NCBI GenBank assembly: GCA_963718525.1 | Contig: OY970355.1 | Location: forward strand, 2,400,001-2,464,000 | DNA from: Candidatus Dormiibacterota bacterium | GTDB taxonomy: Bacteria; Chloroflexota; Dormibacteria; Aeolococcales; Aeolococcaceae | Reading direction: 5' to 3' | Length of the DNA stretch: 64,000 nucleotides | Shown: positions 36,271 to 40,564 of the stretch, piece after piece | Numbering within the stretch: position 1 is the stretch's first letter | Layout: the number at the start of each line of letters is the position of its first letter | The notes under the pieces: generated by a model | The model's input: only the letters and a program-made list of their open reading frames with translations | Database searches by the model: none | Told to the model about the DNA's origin: nothing | Program-made: the position numbers and the translations under genes

Positions 36271-37029
36271 TCAGCTGACAGCGTCAAGGACGTCGTCCGG
36301 TATCTCGGCATTGGCGTAGACCTGCTGGACGTCGTCGTGCTCCTCGAGACCGTCGAGGAGGCGGAGGACCTGACGAGCCTGCGACGCGTCGAGTGGCACC
36401 GAGGTCGTCGGGTTCATGGTGACCTCCGCGGAGCCCACCGAGTAGTTGCGTTCCTCGAGCGTGCGCCGCACCTCTTCGAAACGGGATGGAGCCACGGTCA
36501 CGACCACCTCGTCGCCATCCACGCTCACATCACCGTCCTCACCGACGTCGACGGCGTCGAGCAGCTCGAGCGCGAGTTCGTCCGGGTCACGCTTGCCGGC
36601 TTCGATGGTGATGACCCCTTGTTGATTGAACATCCAGGCGACGCTGTTCGCCTCGCCGAGCGCGCCGCCAGAGCGCGTGAACGCGTTGCGGATCCCCGCG
36701 ACCGTGCGATTGCGGTTATCGGTCAGCGTGTCCACCATCACCGCGACACCGTGCGGCCCGTAGCCCTCGTATCGCACCTCTTCGAGCTGCACGCCATCCT
36801 TCCCGCCGGCACCCCGCTGGATGGCCCGGTCGATGTTGTCTGCGGGCATGTTCACCTCTCGGGCCTTCTGGATGGCAAGGCGCAGACGGAAGTTGCCCTC
36901 GACATCAGGGCCGCCCTCGCGGGCGGCGACCGTCAGCTCGCGTGTGACCTTGGTGAACACCTGGCCGCGACGAGCGTCGACGATCGCTTTCTTGTGCTTG
37001 ATTCCAGCCCACTTGCTGTGACCGGACAT
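36271..37029 (-). CDS. yebC: YebC/PmpR family protein
   Basis: MSGHSKWAGIKHKK after GGAGG, YEGYGPHGVA, TDNRNRT, DDVQQVYAN. Confidence 0.97.
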   Translation of the reverse strand: MSGHSKWAGIKHKKAIVDARRGQVFTKVTRELTVAAREGGPDVEGNFRLRLAIQKAREVNMPADNIDRAIQRGAGGKDGVQLEEVRYEGYGPHGVAVMVDTLTDNRNRTVAGIRNAFTRSGGALGEANSVAWMFNQQGVITIEAGKRDPDELALELLDAVDVGEDGDVSVDGDEVVVTVAPSRFEEVRRTLEERNYSVGSAEVTMNPTTSVPLDASQARQVLRLLDGLEEHDDVQQVYANAEIPDDVLDAVS

Positions 37030-37042
37030 GGATCCTCCGAGA

Positions 37043-37085
37043 CGAACAGGCGTTCCGATTCTAGCGCAGCCCAGAACCCAGTCTA
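37043..37085 (-). promoter_or_regulatory. yebC-ruvCAB promoter (TAGACT-16-TAGAAT) with LexA box CGAACAGGCGTTCC
   Basis: -10 37058-37063, -35 37080-37085, exact GAAC-N4-GTTC in 37043-37056. Confidence 0.75.
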
Positions 37086-37098
37086 GGACTCCCGGTCC

Positions 37099-37127
37099 TT
37101 GTGGTAAGCGGCGGACAGGTCTATGGT
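37099..37127 (+). promoter_or_regulatory. Putative promoter TTGTGG-17-TATGGT for the candidate ncRNA
   Basis: -35 37099-37104, -10 37122-37127, 17-nt spacer, divergent from yebC. Confidence 0.5.
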
Positions 37128-37133
37128 TAGGGG

Positions 37134-37462
37134 GAAGCGTCGGCAATCAGACGGAGGTAGGAATACCAATGTTGCGAGCCGTCTGGCACCGTTTTCGGCA
37201 CGGTCGAGCGGAGGGTTGAGGCCCGGCTGACGGGCCCCTGACCGCACGACCATGGCGCCCCCGTCGAGGTCGCTGGGCAATCGGCGTCCCCCGGGCTGGC
37301 CCGGACATGGGCGAGTGCGCGTTGTGCGGGCTGGGAGGCTCGTACCGGGCGTTTCTCCGAACCCGGCACCGGTTTCGGTGCCATCAAGAGCCCGGGAATT
37401 TCTACCGGGCTGCCGTATCAAACGGTGCATAAACCAAGGGGCCGGCTAGTCCGGCCCCTTTC
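37134..37462 (+). ncRNA. Candidate large structured ncRNA, family not recognised
   Basis: Long-range helix GCACCGTTT(37186-94)/AAACGGTGC(37420-28) closing several abutting hairpins; G-U pairs favour the + strand; flanked by promoter and terminator. Confidence 0.6.
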
Positions 37463-37466
37463 ATTT
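37436..37466 (+). terminator. Intrinsic terminator, possibly bidirectional
   Basis: AAGGGGCCGG-CTAGT-CCGGCCCCTT then TCATTT; abuts the convergent mpg stop. Confidence 0.75.
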
Positions 37467-38099
37467 GCCGCCCGGCGGTGGGTCACCCTCGCGCGGCACG
37501 GGTCGCGAGACGGCGGGATCACCGCGCCAGCTGAACCGCAGCAACCGGTCGGCGGCATTGCGCAGTCCGACACGGGTTCCGACGGCGATGGGAGGCGTCG
37601 AGGTCCGCGGCCGGATGTGCACTCGTGAGGCCGGATCGATCAGATCGATGCCGTCGTCCGCGCGGGTGATCCCCAGTCCCCGGCAGAGGTTGCCCGGTCC
37701 GCGAAGCAGCCCGGCGTCTTCGGCCCCGCCACGCCGTGCCGCCACCACGGGCCCACCCTCCTCCAGCGCGGCGGCACGAAGCAGCACCGCGCCAGCGGTG
37801 CCGTCCACCTCGGTGACCACGTTGGCGCAGTGATGCATGCCGTAGGTGAAGTACACGTAGAGGTGCGCAGCCGGGCCGAACATCACCCGCGATCGCGGGG
37901 TCGGACCGCGGAACGCATGGGACGCGGGATCGCTGGTTCCGAGGTATGCCTCGGTCTCCACGATACGGGCCACGGCGACGTTCGACGTTTCCGCGTCGAC
38001 GACGATCATGCAGCCCACCAGATCTCGGGCGACCTCTTCCGTTGGCCGCGCGAACCACTCGCGGGGCAGCTCGGTTACCGGCGAATCTCCGCGTCGCAT
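37461..38099 (-). CDS. DNA-3-methyladenine glycosylase (MPG/AAG family); start uncertain (ATG 38099 or GTA 38078)
   Basis: RIVETEAYLG, DPASHA, YVYFTYGMHHCANVV, AVLLRA, GPGNLC. Confidence 0.93.
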   Translation of the reverse strand: MRRGDSPVTELPREWFARPTEEVARDLVGCMIVVDAETSNVAVARIVETEAYLGTSDPASHAFRGPTPRSRVMFGPAAHLYVYFTYGMHHCANVVTEVDGTAGAVLLRAAALEEGGPVVAARRGGAEDAGLLRGPGNLCRGLGITRADDGIDLIDPASRVHIRPRTSTPPIAVGTRVGLRNAADRLLRFSWRGDPAVSRPVPREGDPPPGGK

Positions 38100-40564
38100 C
38101 GCTCGGCAAGCGCTCTGGCGATCACGTCCTGGGCGCGCTGTGCCTCCTCGCCCGTCAAGGTGCGGTCGGGTGCCCGGAACGTGAGCCGGAACGTCCAACC
38201 CTTCCTCCCCGCCTCGAGCCTGCCGCCCCGATACTCGTCGTACAGCTCGGCGCTTTCGAGCAGGGGTTCCCGTGCATCACGAATTGCGGCGATGGCATCG
38301 CCGGCCTGGCGGTCGGTGGCAACAGTCACCGCCAGATCCTGGACGATCGCGGGAAATCGAGGGGGTTGCACGTATCGGATCGGTCGTGGCGCCGCAGGCG
38401 CGATCGCATCGATGCGCAGCTCACCGACCGCGGCGCGTCCCCGAATCTCGAATGCTGCGGCGGTTTCGAACGACAGCTCGCCGAGAACGCCGACGGTGTC
38501 GTCGCCGAGCCGGAGGAGCGCACTGCGTCCTGGGTGCAGCCCCGATTCCGCTGACGGCCCGGAGCGAAGCTGGGCGCTCGCGAGGTCGCGGCTGATGCGC
38601 TCGAACACCGACTGCACGTGTCGAATCGCCCGTGCGGCGTCCTCAGCCGACCCGCTCGACACATGCACGGCGAGGCTGAGCAACAGGGGCTCGAGCGGCA
38701 GCGGGGGGAGCTCGCGGTCGGCACCGTCGGCCGTCGAGCCCGGCGGAAGCCCGGCTCGTTCGCCCTCCCAGAACGCGCGGCCGAGCTCGAAGAGCATCAC
38801 GTCGTCGGTGCCGCGGTTCACGTTGGACGCGAGCGCCGCGCAGAGCCGGGGGAGCTGCGACGTGCGCAGCAGGCTCCACTCATCACTGAGGGGATTGCGC
38901 AGTGGGAGTGGCGTGCGATCGCGCCCGAGCCCGGGCAGGAGCTTCGCATCGAGCGGACCGACGAACGAGAACGTGATTGCCTCGTCGAAGCCGGCCCCGA
39001 CGCAGACGTCGCGGATCTCATCGTCAAGCGGGGGTGGCGAAGCCGTTCGGCTCACCTCGACGCGCCGGCCCGGGAGCGTGCTCGGCACCCGCGAGTACCC
39101 GATCATCCGTCCGACCTCCTCGACGAGGTCCTCCGGAATCGACACGTCGCGACGGAAATACGGTGGCATGACGGTCAGGGTGGCTCCGTCCTGCTCCACC
39201 GCGAAACCGAGGCGCGCGAGTGTCGTGGCGATCTCGGTCGCGTCGATCGGGATTCCCAGCAGATCGCCCGTGAATCGTGCGGTCAGCGAGATCGGACCGA
39301 GCTCCGGAAGTGGCTGCGGCCATTGGTCGATCGTGCCGCTCAGCACGTGTCCGCCTGACAGCTCTGCGATCAGCGCCGCCGCGCGATCAAGCGCGATCGG
39401 TGGGAGTCGGTCGCTCACTCCCTTCTCGAAGACTGTCGAAGCATCGGTGCGCAGCCCCAGCCGCTTGGAGGTCGCGCGAATGGTCGGCCCATCCCAATTC
39501 GCCGCCTCCAGGAGCACGGTCCTGGTTGCGTCGGTGACCGCTGTCGCGCTGCCTCCGATGATCCCGGCGATGCTGGCGGGAGTCGCGCCGGCGCACACCA
39601 CGAGGTCGTCAGGAGAGAGCTCGCGGTCGATGCCGAGCAGATCGACGACGTGTTCACCCGCTGCGGCGCGGCGAACGATCACGTCGGCCGGCTTCGTAGC
39701 CCCGGCCTCAGCGAATCGATCGAGATCGAATGCGTGCAGGGGTTGACCGAGCTCGTGGAGCACGAAATTGGTGATGTCGACCACGTTGTTGATGGGTCGC
39801 AGGCCGACGGCACGCAGTCGTTGGCGCAGCCAGCCAGGCGATGGGCCGACAGCCAAGCCCTCGATCACTCGAGCCGCGAATCGCGGGCAACCGTCTGGAT
39901 CCTCGATCCGGACCTGCGCGCGCAGCTCGGCGGATGTCGCCGAAAGAAACTCCTCAGGTACGGAGGAGGGCGGTTCGTTCAGCCCCTCGCCGAGCGCCGC
40001 CGCGAGCTCGCGGGCGATGCCGACGTGGCACAGGCAGTCGGGCCGGTTGGTCGTGACGTCGAGGTCGAGGACGGTATCGAGCGCCAGCACTTCGCCGAGC
40101 CCCTGTCCCGGGATTCCCTCATCGAGGATGAGGATGCCATCGGCGTCCTCCCCCACCCCGAGCTCGATAGCGGAGCAGAGCATCCCGGGCGACTTGTGGC
40201 CGCGGATCGTCTTGACTCCGAGGCGCTCGTCGATCGCCGGAGGGCGCGATCCCGGCGGCGCGTAGGGGACCAGGTCGCCCACCTTGACGTTCGGGGCGCC
40301 GGTGAGGACTTTCACCGTCCCCGGCACGACGCTGAAGCTCTCGAGTGGCGCTGGGACCTGCCCGCCGAGATCGAGATCGGCAAATTGCAGGTGGGACGAA
40401 CCTGGAACCGGCCCGACCGACGTGATCCGCGCGACGAGGAGGCCTTCGCCCCCGAGTTCCACGGCTCCGACCTCGGTGCCGGTGTCGACGAGCGTTTTCA
40501 CGATCGTCGCAACGGGTGCGTCGAGGGTTGCGTAGTCGCGAAGCCAGCGAAGGGAGAACTTCAC
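38075..40564 (-). CDS. pheT: Phenylalanine--tRNA ligase beta subunit
   Basis: MKFSLRWL, SPGMLCS, TTNRPDCL, INNVVDITN, GQPLHAFD, EDLVEEVGR, FDX-ACB C-terminus. Confidence 0.97.
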   Translation of the reverse strand: MKFSLRWLRDYATLDAPVATIVKTLVDTGTEVGAVELGGEGLLVARITSVGPVPGSSHLQFADLDLGGQVPAPLESFSVVPGTVKVLTGAPNVKVGDLVPYAPPGSRPPAIDERLGVKTIRGHKSPGMLCSAIELGVGEDADGILILDEGIPGQGLGEVLALDTVLDLDVTTNRPDCLCHVGIARELAAALGEGLNEPPSSVPEEFLSATSAELRAQVRIEDPDGCPRFAARVIEGLAVGPSPGWLRQRLRAVGLRPINNVVDITNFVLHELGQPLHAFDLDRFAEAGATKPADVIVRRAAAGEHVVDLLGIDRELSPDDLVVCAGATPASIAGIIGGSATAVTDATRTVLLEAANWDGPTIRATSKRLGLRTDASTVFEKGVSDRLPPIALDRAAALIAELSGGHVLSGTIDQWPQPLPELGPISLTARFTGDLLGIPIDATEIATTLARLGFAVEQDGATLTVMPPYFRRDVSIPEDLVEEVGRMIGYSRVPSTLPGRRVEVSRTASPPPLDDEIRDVCVGAGFDEAITFSFVGPLDAKLLPGLGRDRTPLPLRNPLSDEWSLLRTSQLPRLCAALASNVNRGTDDVMLFELGRAFWEGERAGLPPGSTADGADRELPPLPLEPLLLSLAVHVSSGSAEDAARAIRHVQSVFERISRDLASAQLRSGPSAESGLHPGRSALLRLGDDTVGVLGELSFETAAAFEIRGRAAVGELRIDAIAPAAPRPIRYVQPPRFPAIVQDLAVTVATDRQAGDAIAAIRDAREPLLESAELYDEYRGGRLEAGRKGWTFRLTFRAPDRTLTGEEAQRAQDVIARALAERCDAEIRR

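What the first reader, a model, noticed from the sequence alone, without database searches (positions are those of the whole stretch)
37099..37466. Stand-alone ~330-nt multi-helix RNA between yebC and mpg
Seen: a 431-nt gap in an otherwise tightly packed region, with a + strand promoter (TTGTGG-17-TATGGT) and a strong terminator. The 5' hairpin CAGACGG(37148-54)/CCGTCTG(37179-85) contains GGTA-GGAA-TACC. A long-range stem GCACCGTTT(37186-94)/AAACGGTGC(37420-28) plus CGGCA/TGCCG closes mostly abutting helices: CGGTC/GACCG with GGCCCG/CGGGCC; CACGAC/GTTGTG with inner GGCGCC/GGCGTC and CCGGG/CCCGG; CGGGC/GCTCG; CCGGG/CCCGG; CACCG/CGGTG; GCCCGG/CCGGGC. Loops GGAG(37334-37) and CTCC(37355-58) could pair. 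G-U pairs work only on the + strand. No + strand gene lies downstream, so it is not a cis leader. I found no RNase P, tmRNA, SRP or 6S hallmark. Inference: a trans-acting structured RNA, possibly a new class. Caveat: short stems arise easily at this GC content.
Basis: partly seen in the sequence, partly recalled or inferred. Interest (0 to 1): 0.8.

Follow-up and report, generated by a model that had tools for sequence, protein, structure and literature searches.

The report
Structured RNA carrying a conserved mini-gene
Between yebC and mpg lies a stand-alone, roughly 330-base structured RNA found throughout one order of the uncultured soil lineage Dormibacteria; its first fifth encodes a conserved 15-16-residue arginine-rich peptide, so it is a new RNA family that is both folded and translated.

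Summary
The gap (37030-37460) holds a real + strand transcription unit of about 332 nt (roughly 37134-37466), with a promoter and a strong terminator. It is as conserved as yebC in 36 of 36 genomes of the genus. A model of its 5' domain finds it in 48 of 48 sampled genomes of the two families of the order. It finds none in 102 other genomes of the class, and none in 145 genomes outside the own family in a sample of the phylum. Record titles name Candidatus Dormibacterota. No Rfam family matches.

A Shine-Dalgarno GGAGG (37153-57) precedes a 16-codon ORF (37169-37219, MLRAVWHRFRHGRAEG*). This ORF is under protein-level selection across the order: synonymous codon turnover, all three stop codons, ATG/GTG/TTG starts, and a frame-preserving 35-codon version in one genus. 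Codons 3-5 form the 3' arm of the 5' hairpin, and the stop codon sits in the base of the next stem.

Soil, peat and rhizosphere metatranscriptome contigs cover only this RNA, at higher depth than the flanks. It is therefore a new sORF-bearing structured RNA, a candidate dual-function RNA, and not a pure ncRNA. Its function is unknown; the mechanism I give is inference.

The parts
37099..37104 (+). -35-like hexamer TTGTGG
   Evidence: Sequence. TTG is conserved in the genus. Other genera have TTGACA or a near match at the same place.
37122..37127 (+). -10 hexamer TATGGT (TAnnnT), 17-nt spacer
   Evidence: It is conserved as TATGGT or TACGGT in the genus. A positionally conserved promoter pair occurs in 33 of 39 loci.
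37134..37466 (+). Predicted transcript of about 332 nt. The 5' end is inferred from the -10 hexamer; the 3' end is the terminator T-run.
   Evidence: Model R1 matches 37131-37470. Metatranscriptome contigs lie wholly within 37146-37423.
37148..37185 (+). 5' hairpin H1: CAGACGG (37148-54) pairs with CCGTCTG (37179-85). The loop holds the rest of the SD and the start codon. The 3' arm is codons 3-5 of the sORF.
   Evidence: Invariant in the genus. Across the order 7 of 8 pairs show changes on both sides and 85% of cells are paired, on a model-fitted alignment. Example: GGTACACG/CGTGTACC in L074.
37153..37157 (+). Shine-Dalgarno GGAGG, 11 nt before the ATG
   Evidence: Invariant in 37 of 37 genus sequences. 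Present 8-15 nt before the start codon in the other genera.
37169..37219 (+). sORF of 16 codons plus TGA: MLRAVWHRFRHGRAEG*
   Evidence: These show synonymous turnover, use of three different stop codons, 0 of 52 distinct segments with an in-frame stop, and a frame-preserving 35-codon form in genus g9.
37214..37243 (+). Stem that contains the last sense codon and the stop codon. GGTT (37214-17) pairs with GACC (37240-43), enclosing the hairpin GGCCCG (37220-25) / GCTGA loop / CGGGCC (37231-36).
   Evidence: Alifold. In one search, helices 4 and 6 are 81% and 94% paired, with changes on both sides. A GC-rich hairpin starts 0-4 nt after the stop codon in nearly all loci.
37245..37326 (+). Middle domain closed by CACGAC (37245-50) / GTTGTG (37321-26). 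Inner hairpins are CGCTGG-GCAA-TCGGCG (37271-86) and GCCC/GGGC (37299-302 / 37309-12).
   Evidence: Compensatory changes at 5 of 6 closing pairs. For 179-191 the pair types are CG 20, UA 14, UG 3. The domain is absent or shortened in several genera and in family f2.
37365..37382 (+). Hairpin GGCACC / GGTGCC
   Evidence: Across the order, helix 14 is 99% paired and 6 of 6 pairs change on both sides.
37390..37410 (+). Hairpin GCCCGG / CCGGGC. Its loop carries the only conserved single-stranded 3' motif (A-U-(U)-C-C).
   Evidence: (helix 15).
37412..37426 (+). Local hairpin GCCGT / ACGGT.
   Evidence: In one search, helix 16 has 5 of 5 pairs with changes on both sides and is 95% paired.
37436..37466 (+). 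Intrinsic terminator: 10-bp stem 37436-45 / 37451-60 followed by TTTCATTT. It overlaps the stop codon of the convergent mpg gene (37461-63).
   Evidence: (helix 17).
36271..37029 (-). yebC, the divergent upstream neighbour (context). Its promoter-like site is at 37085-37058.
   Evidence: Pfam PF01709 and PF20772. Promoter scan.
37461..38198 (-). mpg (methylpurine-DNA glycosylase), the convergent downstream neighbour (context).
   Evidence: Pfam PF02245. It lies convergent next to the RNA in 31 of 39 loci.

Best explanation
What it is (the confidence figure applies to this part): an independent + strand gene for an abundant, roughly 330-nt structured RNA. It is specific to, and apparently universal in, one order of Dormibacteria. 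Its 5' end is translated into a conserved 15-16-residue arginine-rich peptide with consensus M-R-T-V-W-Q-x-L-R-H-G/T-R-A-E-x-stop. It is therefore an sORF-bearing structured RNA of a new family and a candidate dual-function RNA.

Anatomy that is shown:
- a sigma-70-type promoter;
- a 5' hairpin whose 5' arm overlaps the SD and whose 3' arm is codons 3-5;
- a stop codon embedded in the base of a GC-rich stem-loop;
- a variable middle domain;
- three conserved 3' hairpins;
- an intrinsic terminator shared with the convergent mpg gene.

How it most likely works (inference, about 35%): translation and folding of the 5' domain exclude each other. A ribosome on the sORF must open both H1 and the stop-codon stem. 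The peptide is conserved most strongly near its C-terminus, and an invariant aromatic residue lies 9 residues before the invariant E. This pattern suggests that the nascent chain acts inside the ribosome, by pausing or arrest. A paused ribosome would be held on the 5' domain and would thereby set the fold, half-life or partner access of the 3' hairpin array.

Nearly as likely (about 30%): the released basic amphipathic peptide is itself an effector, possibly bound to its own RNA.
For: Independent unit:
- A promoter pair lies 22-31 nt upstream of the SD in 33 of 39 loci.
- The terminator is compensatory at 10 of 10 pairs.
- No co-oriented gene follows.

Selection on the whole unit:
- Identity to the window per 60 nt is 0.79-0.91 across the RNA, against 0.76-0.97 in yebC and 0.58-0.86 in mpg.

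Distribution:
- BLAST finds it in 36 of 36 genomes of the genus.
- R1 finds it in 112 of 151 genomes of the order.
- R2 finds it in f1 33 of 33 and f2 15 of 15, and in 0 of 102 genomes of f3-f5.
- In a sample of the phylum, R2 finds it in 3 of 5 f1 genomes besides the window's own, and in 0 of 145 genomes of other families.
- An exact degenerate pattern matches 41 stretches in 185,579 species. All have Dormibacterota-type synteny or titles.

Structure:
- On the order-wide alignment 90.6% of cells are paired, against 37-50% when partners are slid. 73 of 82 pairs change on both sides (this alignment was fitted to the model).
- In the MAFFT genus alignment, compensatory changes occur in 121-125/204-208 and 178-181/189-192.

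Translation:
- R9 is Arg in 75 of 75 sequences, using CGG, AGG and CGA.
- A stop codon occurs at codon 15 or 16 in 73 of 75 (TGA 56, TAG 12, TAA 5).
- Synonymous codon differences make up 35% in frame 0 against 15% and 14% in the shifted frames. Entropy at codon position 3 is 1.02, against 0.75 and 0.66 at positions 1 and 2. In-frame stops occur in 0 of 52 distinct segments, against 23 and 1 in the other frames.
- Starts are ATG, GTG or TTG, 8-15 nt after GGAGG.
- Genus g9 keeps a 35-codon in-frame version in two species.

Expression:
- Contigs of 267, 292 and 208+92 nt from three metatranscriptome studies lie wholly within 37146-37423. Their word depth is 35-74, against 2-15 for flank pieces.
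Against: - There is no direct evidence of translation: no ribosome profiling and no peptide detection.
- Contigs give no strand, no ends and no reliable level. Run X1 gave only 39- and 30-nt pieces in the RNA.
- 4 of 39 loci are irregular. L069 and L073 have lost the stop codon, adding 4-5 residues. L072 and L079 lack a canonical start at the right spacing.
- R12-A13-E14 were used to anchor the codon table, so their 75 of 75 is partly by construction.
- The order-wide pair counts come from an alignment fitted to the model.
- Against arrest at termination: the last residue and the stop codon both vary.
- The predicted unpaired probability of the SD (0.30) and of the start codon (0.31) is about the RNA's average of 0.34. 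Computed SD sequestration is therefore unremarkable.
- Nothing shown here says what the 3' domain binds.
Confidence: 0.75

Rival explanations
1. It is a plain small-protein mRNA. Only the peptide matters, and the roughly 250-nt 3' part is a stabilising or terminator-rich 3' UTR with no function of its own.
For: The sORF is the best-conserved element across the order. The middle domain is dispensable in several genera and in f2. The order-wide core is the sORF, some hairpins and a terminator.
Against: Within the genus the 3' part is as conserved as yebC coding sequence. Hairpins 14-16 are kept with compensatory changes across both families, and one loop motif is conserved. The untranslated part is about 5 times the length of the ORF. 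The high-depth contigs cover the whole RNA body.
Confidence: 0.15
2. It is a pure noncoding trans-acting structured RNA, and the apparent ORF is a by-product of structural constraint.
For: There are many covarying helices. Part of the ORF lies in helix H1, which also constrains its nucleotides: ACC in 60 of 75 and GTC in 64 of 75.
Against: Variation has period 3, and synonymous changes are in excess only in frame 0. Arg is kept through CGN/AGR switches that change two bases. Three different stop codons occur at the same place. The SD and start-codon spacing are conserved. The g9 insertion preserves the frame. The alifold helix inside the ORF is unpaired in 29-30 of 45 sequences.
Confidence: 0.05
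3. It is a leader-peptide switch that controls read-through of its terminator into the antisense strand of mpg-pheT-pheS, acting by transcriptional interference or as an antisense RNA.
For: The RNA is convergent with mpg in 31 of 39 loci across both families, whereas the upstream neighbour varies: yebC, a class I W/Y tRNA synthetase, and others. The terminator overlaps the mpg stop codon.
Against: The terminator is a 10-bp GC stem with a T-run, and I saw no conserved competing antiterminator (inspection only). Copies in genus g13 lie about 5 kb from mpg or elsewhere yet keep the same anatomy. The metatranscriptome contigs stop before the terminator (weak).
Confidence: 0.07
4. It is a 6S- or Ms1-like RNA that binds RNA polymerase.
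For: Its size is close to that of Ms1 (about 300 nt) and it is apparently abundant. RF00013 finds no 6S in the window's own genome.
Against: It has no rod with a central bubble; the structure is a string of hairpins. Sub-threshold 6S-like matches lie at other loci in 16 of 48 genomes of the order that also carry this RNA. The Ms1 synteny of HAD-IB hydrolase and oxidoreductase (PMC9130861, passages read) is not present here. A translated sORF is not a feature of either family.
Confidence: 0.03
5. It is a recoded long ORF: a selenoprotein with UGA at 37217 read as Sec via the following hairpin, or read-through to 37432.
For: The frame 37169-37432 is open in the window apart from this TGA, and a hairpin follows the TGA directly.
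Against: The stop codon is TAG or TAA in 17 of 73 sequences. 1-nt indels are frequent from alignment column 113 onward. Where the stop is lost, the frame ends 4-5 codons later.
Confidence: 0.01

Closest known systems
Dual-function (coding) small RNAs, e.g. SgrS/SgrT, RNAIII/delta-haemolysin, SR1/SR1P (recalled, no call)
   Same: Each is a stand-alone transcript of a few hundred nt with its own promoter and terminator, a short translated ORF and conserved structured RNA outside the ORF.
   Different: No sequence or Rfam relation. The peptide here is only 15-16 residues and arginine-rich. The ORF sits at the extreme 5' end, inside two helices. Base-pairing targets are unknown. The RNA is universal in a whole order rather than a few genera.
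rnTrpL / peTrpL of Sinorhizobium meliloti (PMC7968998 and PMC7298713; only titles and abstract openings seen in the listing)
   Same: A small RNA that encodes a peptide of about 14 residues, where RNA and peptide are both reported to act in trans.
   Different: That RNA derives from a trp attenuator upstream of trpE(G). The RNA here has no co-oriented downstream gene (31 of 39 loci are convergent with mpg), is three times longer and has no Trp run.
Regulatory ribosome-arrest peptides such as SecM, TnaC and SpeFL (recalled, no call)
   Same: A short ORF whose amino-acid sequence, not only its presence, is conserved. Conservation is strongest near the C-terminus, with an aromatic residue about 10 residues upstream. 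RNA structure abuts the ORF end.
   Different: Those peptides control a downstream gene in cis; there is none here. The last residue and the stop codon vary here. Arrest is untested.
tmRNA
   Same: A structured RNA of 300-400 nt that contains a short reading frame.
   Different: There is no tRNA-like domain: ARAGORN finds nothing at 36500-38000. The genome's tmRNA is elsewhere. This ORF has its own SD and start codon.
Ms1 / 6S RNA (PMC9130861, passages read)
   Same: Similar size and apparent abundance.
   Different: The structure, synteny, taxon and the presence of a translated sORF all differ.

Membership tests
Any Rfam 15 family | Match to a covariance model at or near its gathering score | tested here: not met
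   There are 0 matches at gathering score in the window. At the locus only chance-level hits appear, with E of 1.8-5.4. In 20 related loci only two hits appear, with E of about 0.4.
Dual-function (coding) sRNA | Independent transcription unit | tested here: met
   Promoter and terminator are conserved in position. No co-oriented neighbour exists. RNA-only metatranscriptome contigs were found. This evidence is computational and indirect.
Dual-function (coding) sRNA | A translated short ORF | tested here: met
   The evidence is comparative only. There is no ribosome or peptide data.
Dual-function (coding) sRNA | A separate regulatory activity of the RNA, by base pairing or protein binding | not testable with these tools
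   Only conservation and covariation of the 3' hairpins are shown.
Leader-peptide transcription attenuator | A co-oriented regulated gene downstream, and alternative terminator and antiterminator folds | tested here: not met
   The downstream gene is the convergent mpg in 31 of 39 loci. No conserved antiterminator was seen (inspection).
Ribosome-arrest peptide | Sequence-dependent stalling of the translating ribosome | not testable with these tools
   The conservation pattern is compatible.
tmRNA | tRNA-like domain and a tag reading frame without SD or start codon | tested here: not met
   ARAGORN finds none. RF00023 matches elsewhere in the genome at 179 bits.
6S RNA | Rod-like fold with a central bubble; RF00013 match | tested here: not met
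   There is no RF00013 match at the locus. The consensus structure is a string of hairpins. 6S-like hits at other loci coexist with this RNA.
Ms1 RNA | Actinobacterial; flanked by HAD-IB hydrolase and oxidoreductase genes; binds the RNA polymerase core | tested here: not met
   The synteny differs (against PMC9130861). Record titles name the lineage as Dormibacterota. Binding is not testable.
Bacterial selenoprotein mRNA (SECIS) | A conserved in-frame UGA followed by a SECIS hairpin and continued coding | tested here: not met
   The stop is TAG or TAA in 17 of 73 sequences. The frame is not kept downstream.

The most novel reading that the evidence does not exclude
This is an abundant, order-wide RNA that is gated by translation of its own mini-ORF. 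The 15-residue nascent peptide pauses or arrests the ribosome on the RNA's 5' domain, perhaps in response to a cellular signal. The parked ribosome, or the released arginine-rich peptide bound back to its own RNA, switches the conserved 3' hairpin array between active and inactive states. That would be a self-encoded ribonucleoprotein or translation-gated trans-acting RNA, with no cis target gene.
Probability: 0.15. Interest if true: 0.85.

Novelty: new variant of a known kind. Interest (0 to 1): 0.62.

Why it matters
Dormibacteria are an uncultured, globally common soil, peat and cold-desert lineage, and I found no paper on their RNAs (0 papers hold both 'Dormibacter' and 'ncRNA').

This element is present in every sampled genome of one order, usually in one copy. 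It appears to be among the more abundant non-ribosomal RNAs of these organisms in metatranscriptomes. It couples a very short, strongly conserved peptide to a conserved RNA fold.

Automatic annotation misses it twice: the ORF is too short for gene callers, and the RNA is in no RNA library.

If the peptide acts in the ribosome tunnel or on its own RNA, it would be a rare case of a trans-acting RNA controlled by its own translation. It could be tested in vitro without culturing the host. At the least, it is a lineage marker and a new entry for RNA and small-protein catalogues.

Tried and rejected
- Rfam at gathering and at permissive thresholds, on the window and on 20 related loci, gave nothing.
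- ARAGORN found nothing.
- Ms1 by synteny was rejected.
- A 6S substitute was rejected, because 6S-like hits coexist with this RNA.
- Selenocysteine or read-through was rejected.
- A macrolide-type R-x-R arrest motif was rejected. Position 7 is Arg in only 53 of 75 sequences and otherwise L, F, Y, S, Q, V or I.
- Recognition of a specific loop in the post-stop hairpin (a boxB-like idea) was rejected. The loops differ between genera: tri-, tetra- and pentaloops of unrelated sequence.
- Pairing of the conserved 3' loop motif with the 5' leader gave only 4-bp matches and none in f2, by inspection.
- An all-against-all covariation screen with loose criteria was too noisy to use.
- The SD/start accessibility calculation gave average values and no signal.
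- A search for an equivalent RNA beside mpg in 5 genomes of the other families of the class found protein-coding DNA there instead.
- Run X1 of the read laying gave only 39- and 30-nt pieces in the RNA region and says nothing either way.

Full report
**1. The observation**

The window has ruvB, ruvA, ruvC and yebC on the - strand, with yebC at 36271-37029. Further on, also on the - strand, lie mpg (37461-38198, PF02245) and pheT. The 431 nt between them carry several features:
- TTGTGG (37099-104), a 17-nt spacer and TATGGT (37122-27) on the + strand;
- a 10-bp GC-rich stem (37436-45 / 37451-60) followed by TTTCATTT.

The tool's stricter promoter scan listed only a - strand site, at 37085-37058, which fits yebC. 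The RNA folds better than shuffles on both strands, with z = -3.77 on + and -3.57 on -. Folding energy therefore does not choose the strand. The promoter, the terminator and the ORF do.

**2. Conservation and range**

- BLAST finds the stretch once in the window's own genome and in 36 of 36 other genomes of the genus, at 77-95% identity.
- In a 3.3-kb alignment of 30 loci, identity to the window per 60 nt is 0.79-0.91 across the RNA. It is 0.76-0.97 in yebC and 0.58-0.86 in mpg.
- Covariance model R1, built from 37 genus sequences (A1), matches 112 of 151 genomes of the order: f1 92 of 106 and f2 19 of 44.
- Model R2, built on the 5' domain from 39 diverse sequences (A3), matches f1 33 of 33 and f2 15 of 15. 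It matches 0 of 102 genomes of the three other families of the class.
- In a sample of the phylum, R2 matches only f1 (3 of 5 besides the window's own genome) and 0 of 145 others.
- These tallies include a few genomes flagged as unpublished: G039, G044, G048, G056, G068, G071 and G116. Dropping them changes no conclusion, and no sequence from them was used.
- An exact degenerate pattern for the SD plus ORF finds 41 stretches among one genome each of 185,579 species. Their titles read Candidatus Dormibacterota or Dormibacteria, some Chloroflexota. Four carry other labels but have the same yebC/ruvC/mpg/pheT neighbours.
- Five genomes of the other families have protein-coding DNA, not this RNA, beside mpg.

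**3. It is not a known RNA**

- No Rfam family matches, at gathering or permissive thresholds, in the window or in 20 related loci.
- ARAGORN finds nothing.
- RNase P RNA, tmRNA and SRP RNA are elsewhere in the genome.
- RF00013 (6S) finds nothing in the window's own genome. Sub-threshold 6S-like matches sit at other loci in 16 of 48 genomes of the order that also carry this RNA. It is therefore not a 6S stand-in.
- The Ms1 gene neighbourhood, as described in PMC9130861 (passages read), is not the one here.

**4. The short ORF**

GGAGG (37153-57) is invariant in the genus. Eleven nt later, ATG (37169) opens 16 codons, MLRAVWHRFRHGRAEG, that end in TGA at 37217-19.

Within the genus:
- The stretch has no indel.
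- The variable columns between codons 5 and 16 fall mainly on third positions: columns 65, 68, 71, 74, 80, 83 and 92.

Across the order:
- The peptide is kept as M-R-T-V-W/Y/F-Q/E-x-L/F/Y-R-H/R/Q-G/T-R-A-E-x.
- R9 is Arg in 75 of 75 sequences, through CGG (42), AGG (28) and CGA (5).
- R12 uses five codons and A13 uses three. R12-A13-E14 served as the anchor, so their invariance is partly by construction.
- A stop follows at codon 15 or 16 in 73 of 75: TGA 56, TAG 12, TAA 5.
- Over codons 2-11 in 52 distinct sequences, 35% of codon differences are synonymous in this frame, against 15% and 14% in the shifted frames.
- Mean entropy is 0.75, 0.66 and 1.02 at codon positions 1, 2 and 3.
- No sequence has an in-frame stop, against 23 and 1 in the other frames.
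- Starts are ATG, GTG or TTG.

Exceptions:
- L069 and L073 lost the stop codon and run on for 4-5 codons.
- L072 and L079 lack a canonical start at the right distance.

In the lower-GC genus g9 the ORF is 35 codons long. It has a second RT[VI]W motif, and the frame is kept in two species.

Downstream of the stop codon, 1-nt indels are common. The long frame to 37432 is therefore not real, and the variable stop codon excludes selenocysteine.

**5. The fold**

- The 5' hairpin, GGCCCG/CGGGCC, GCCCGG/CCGGGC and the terminator are near-invariant.
- CACGAC/GTTGTG has compensatory changes at 5 of 6 pairs.
- The long-range stem breaks at its fourth pair in 35 of 37 sequences.
- CGGTC/GACCG breaks in 33 of 37.

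RNAalifold gives a different picture:
- GGTT (37214-17), which is the last codon plus the first base of the stop codon, pairs with GACC (37240-43) around the post-stop hairpin.
- There is a GCAA-capped hairpin at 37271-86.
- GCCC/GGGC (37299-302 / 37309-12) shows CG to UA changes: CG 20, UA 14, UG 3 at pair 179-191.
- There are local hairpins at 37365-82, 37390-410 and 37412-26.

On 45 order-wide matches aligned to the model, 90.6% of cells pair, against 37-50% when partners are slid. 73 of 82 pairs change on both sides. The one helix predicted inside the ORF fails, being unpaired in 29-30 of 45. That alignment is fitted to the model, so these counts lean towards the structure.

The order-wide core is:
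- H1, with the SD overlapping its 5' arm and codons 3-5 forming its 3' arm;
- the stem holding the stop codon;
- hairpins 14-16;
- the terminator.

The middle domain is missing or short in several genera and in f2. H1 covaries between genera, for example GGTACACG/CGTGTACC where the peptide has V-Y.

**6. Neighbours**

- mpg lies convergent directly after the RNA in 31 of 39 loci from both families. Of the remaining 8, two are cut by contig ends and six are copies in genus g13.
- yebC is the divergent upstream gene in 20 of 39.
- In three genera the upstream gene is a class I W/Y tRNA synthetase instead.
- g13 has 2-3 copies per genome, each a full unit from promoter to terminator.

**7. Expression**

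- Fifteen soil, peat or rhizosphere metatranscriptome runs hold small shares of the 1.2-kb stretch.
- Four were laid. In X2, X3 and X4, which are three separate studies, contigs of 267, 292 and 208+92 nt lie wholly within 37146-37423. Their word depth is 35-74, whereas pieces on the flanks have depth 2-15.
- X1 gave only short pieces.
- Contigs show neither strand nor ends, so this is a moderate hint of a discrete, abundant RNA.

**8. Reading**

What is shown:
- an independent, conserved, structured RNA gene that carries a short ORF under protein-level selection;
- restriction to one order of Dormibacteria;
- no match to any described family.

What is inferred:
- A ribosome on the ORF must melt H1 and the stop-codon stem, so translation and the 5' fold exclude each other.
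- Peptide conservation is concentrated towards the C-terminus, with an invariant aromatic residue 9 residues before the invariant E. This pattern is typical of nascent chains that act in the exit tunnel (recalled knowledge, untested here).
- I therefore favour, at about 35%, a translation-gated RNA in which ribosome dwell on the sORF sets the state of the 3' hairpins.
- A free basic peptide effector, possibly bound to its own RNA, is about as likely, at roughly 30%.
- A plain small-protein mRNA, an antisense switch acting on mpg-pheTS, a pure ncRNA, a polymerase-binding RNA and a recoded ORF follow in falling order.

**9. Limits**

- The host is uncultured, so there are no ribosome or peptide data.
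- Supplements of the papers were not seen and do not bear on the claims.
- The literature statement rests only.

Noticed in passing
window 36979-37098: The yebC start, its 5' UTR and its promoter-like site (TAGACT-16-TAGAAT, 37085-37058, - strand) form the most conserved stretch of the whole 3.3-kb locus. Identity is 0.967 and 0.895 per 60 nt. It lies back-to-back with the RNA promoter, with the two -35 elements about 15 bp apart, so co-regulation is possible.
   Followed up: no
L192 (G063:C11) and L193 (G065:C53), genus g9: In this lower-GC genus (51-58% GC in the loci) the sORF is 35 codons long. It has a second RT[VI]W motif and a 16-residue insert, the frame is kept in both species, and E is encoded by GAA.
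   Followed up: partly
L089-L091 and L099-L101 (genus g13); L150, L151, L170, L177: Genus g13 carries 2-3 full copies of the unit per genome. None is adjacent to mpg: where mpg was found in the locus it lies about 5 kb away, and other copies lie next to unrelated genes such as an FAD oxidoreductase or a response regulator.
   Followed up: partly
L146, L148, L161, L163 (record titles): Records titled Micrarchaeaceae archaeon, Acidiferrales, Actinomycetes and Angelobacter carry the same sORF and the same yebC/ruvC/mpg/pheT neighbourhood as the Dormibacterota records. These labels are probably wrong.
   Followed up: partly
own genome G000 and order genomes: RF00013 finds no 6S RNA in the window's genome or in any of 9 other genomes of its genus. 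Only sub-threshold hits appear in other genera. The 6S RNA of this lineage is either divergent or absent.
   Followed up: partly
window 38075-38198: The listed mpg ORF (TTG start at 38198) overlaps the 3' end of pheT by 124 nt. The Pfam match starts at residue 48, so the real mpg start is probably further downstream.
   Followed up: no
sORF codon 9 in related loci: The invariant Arg at position 9 is encoded by AGG in 28 of 75 sequences, usually as CTG AGG. AGG is usually a rare codon in high-GC bacteria (recalled, not measured here). This also places a GAGG (SD-like) string inside the ORF.
   Followed up: no
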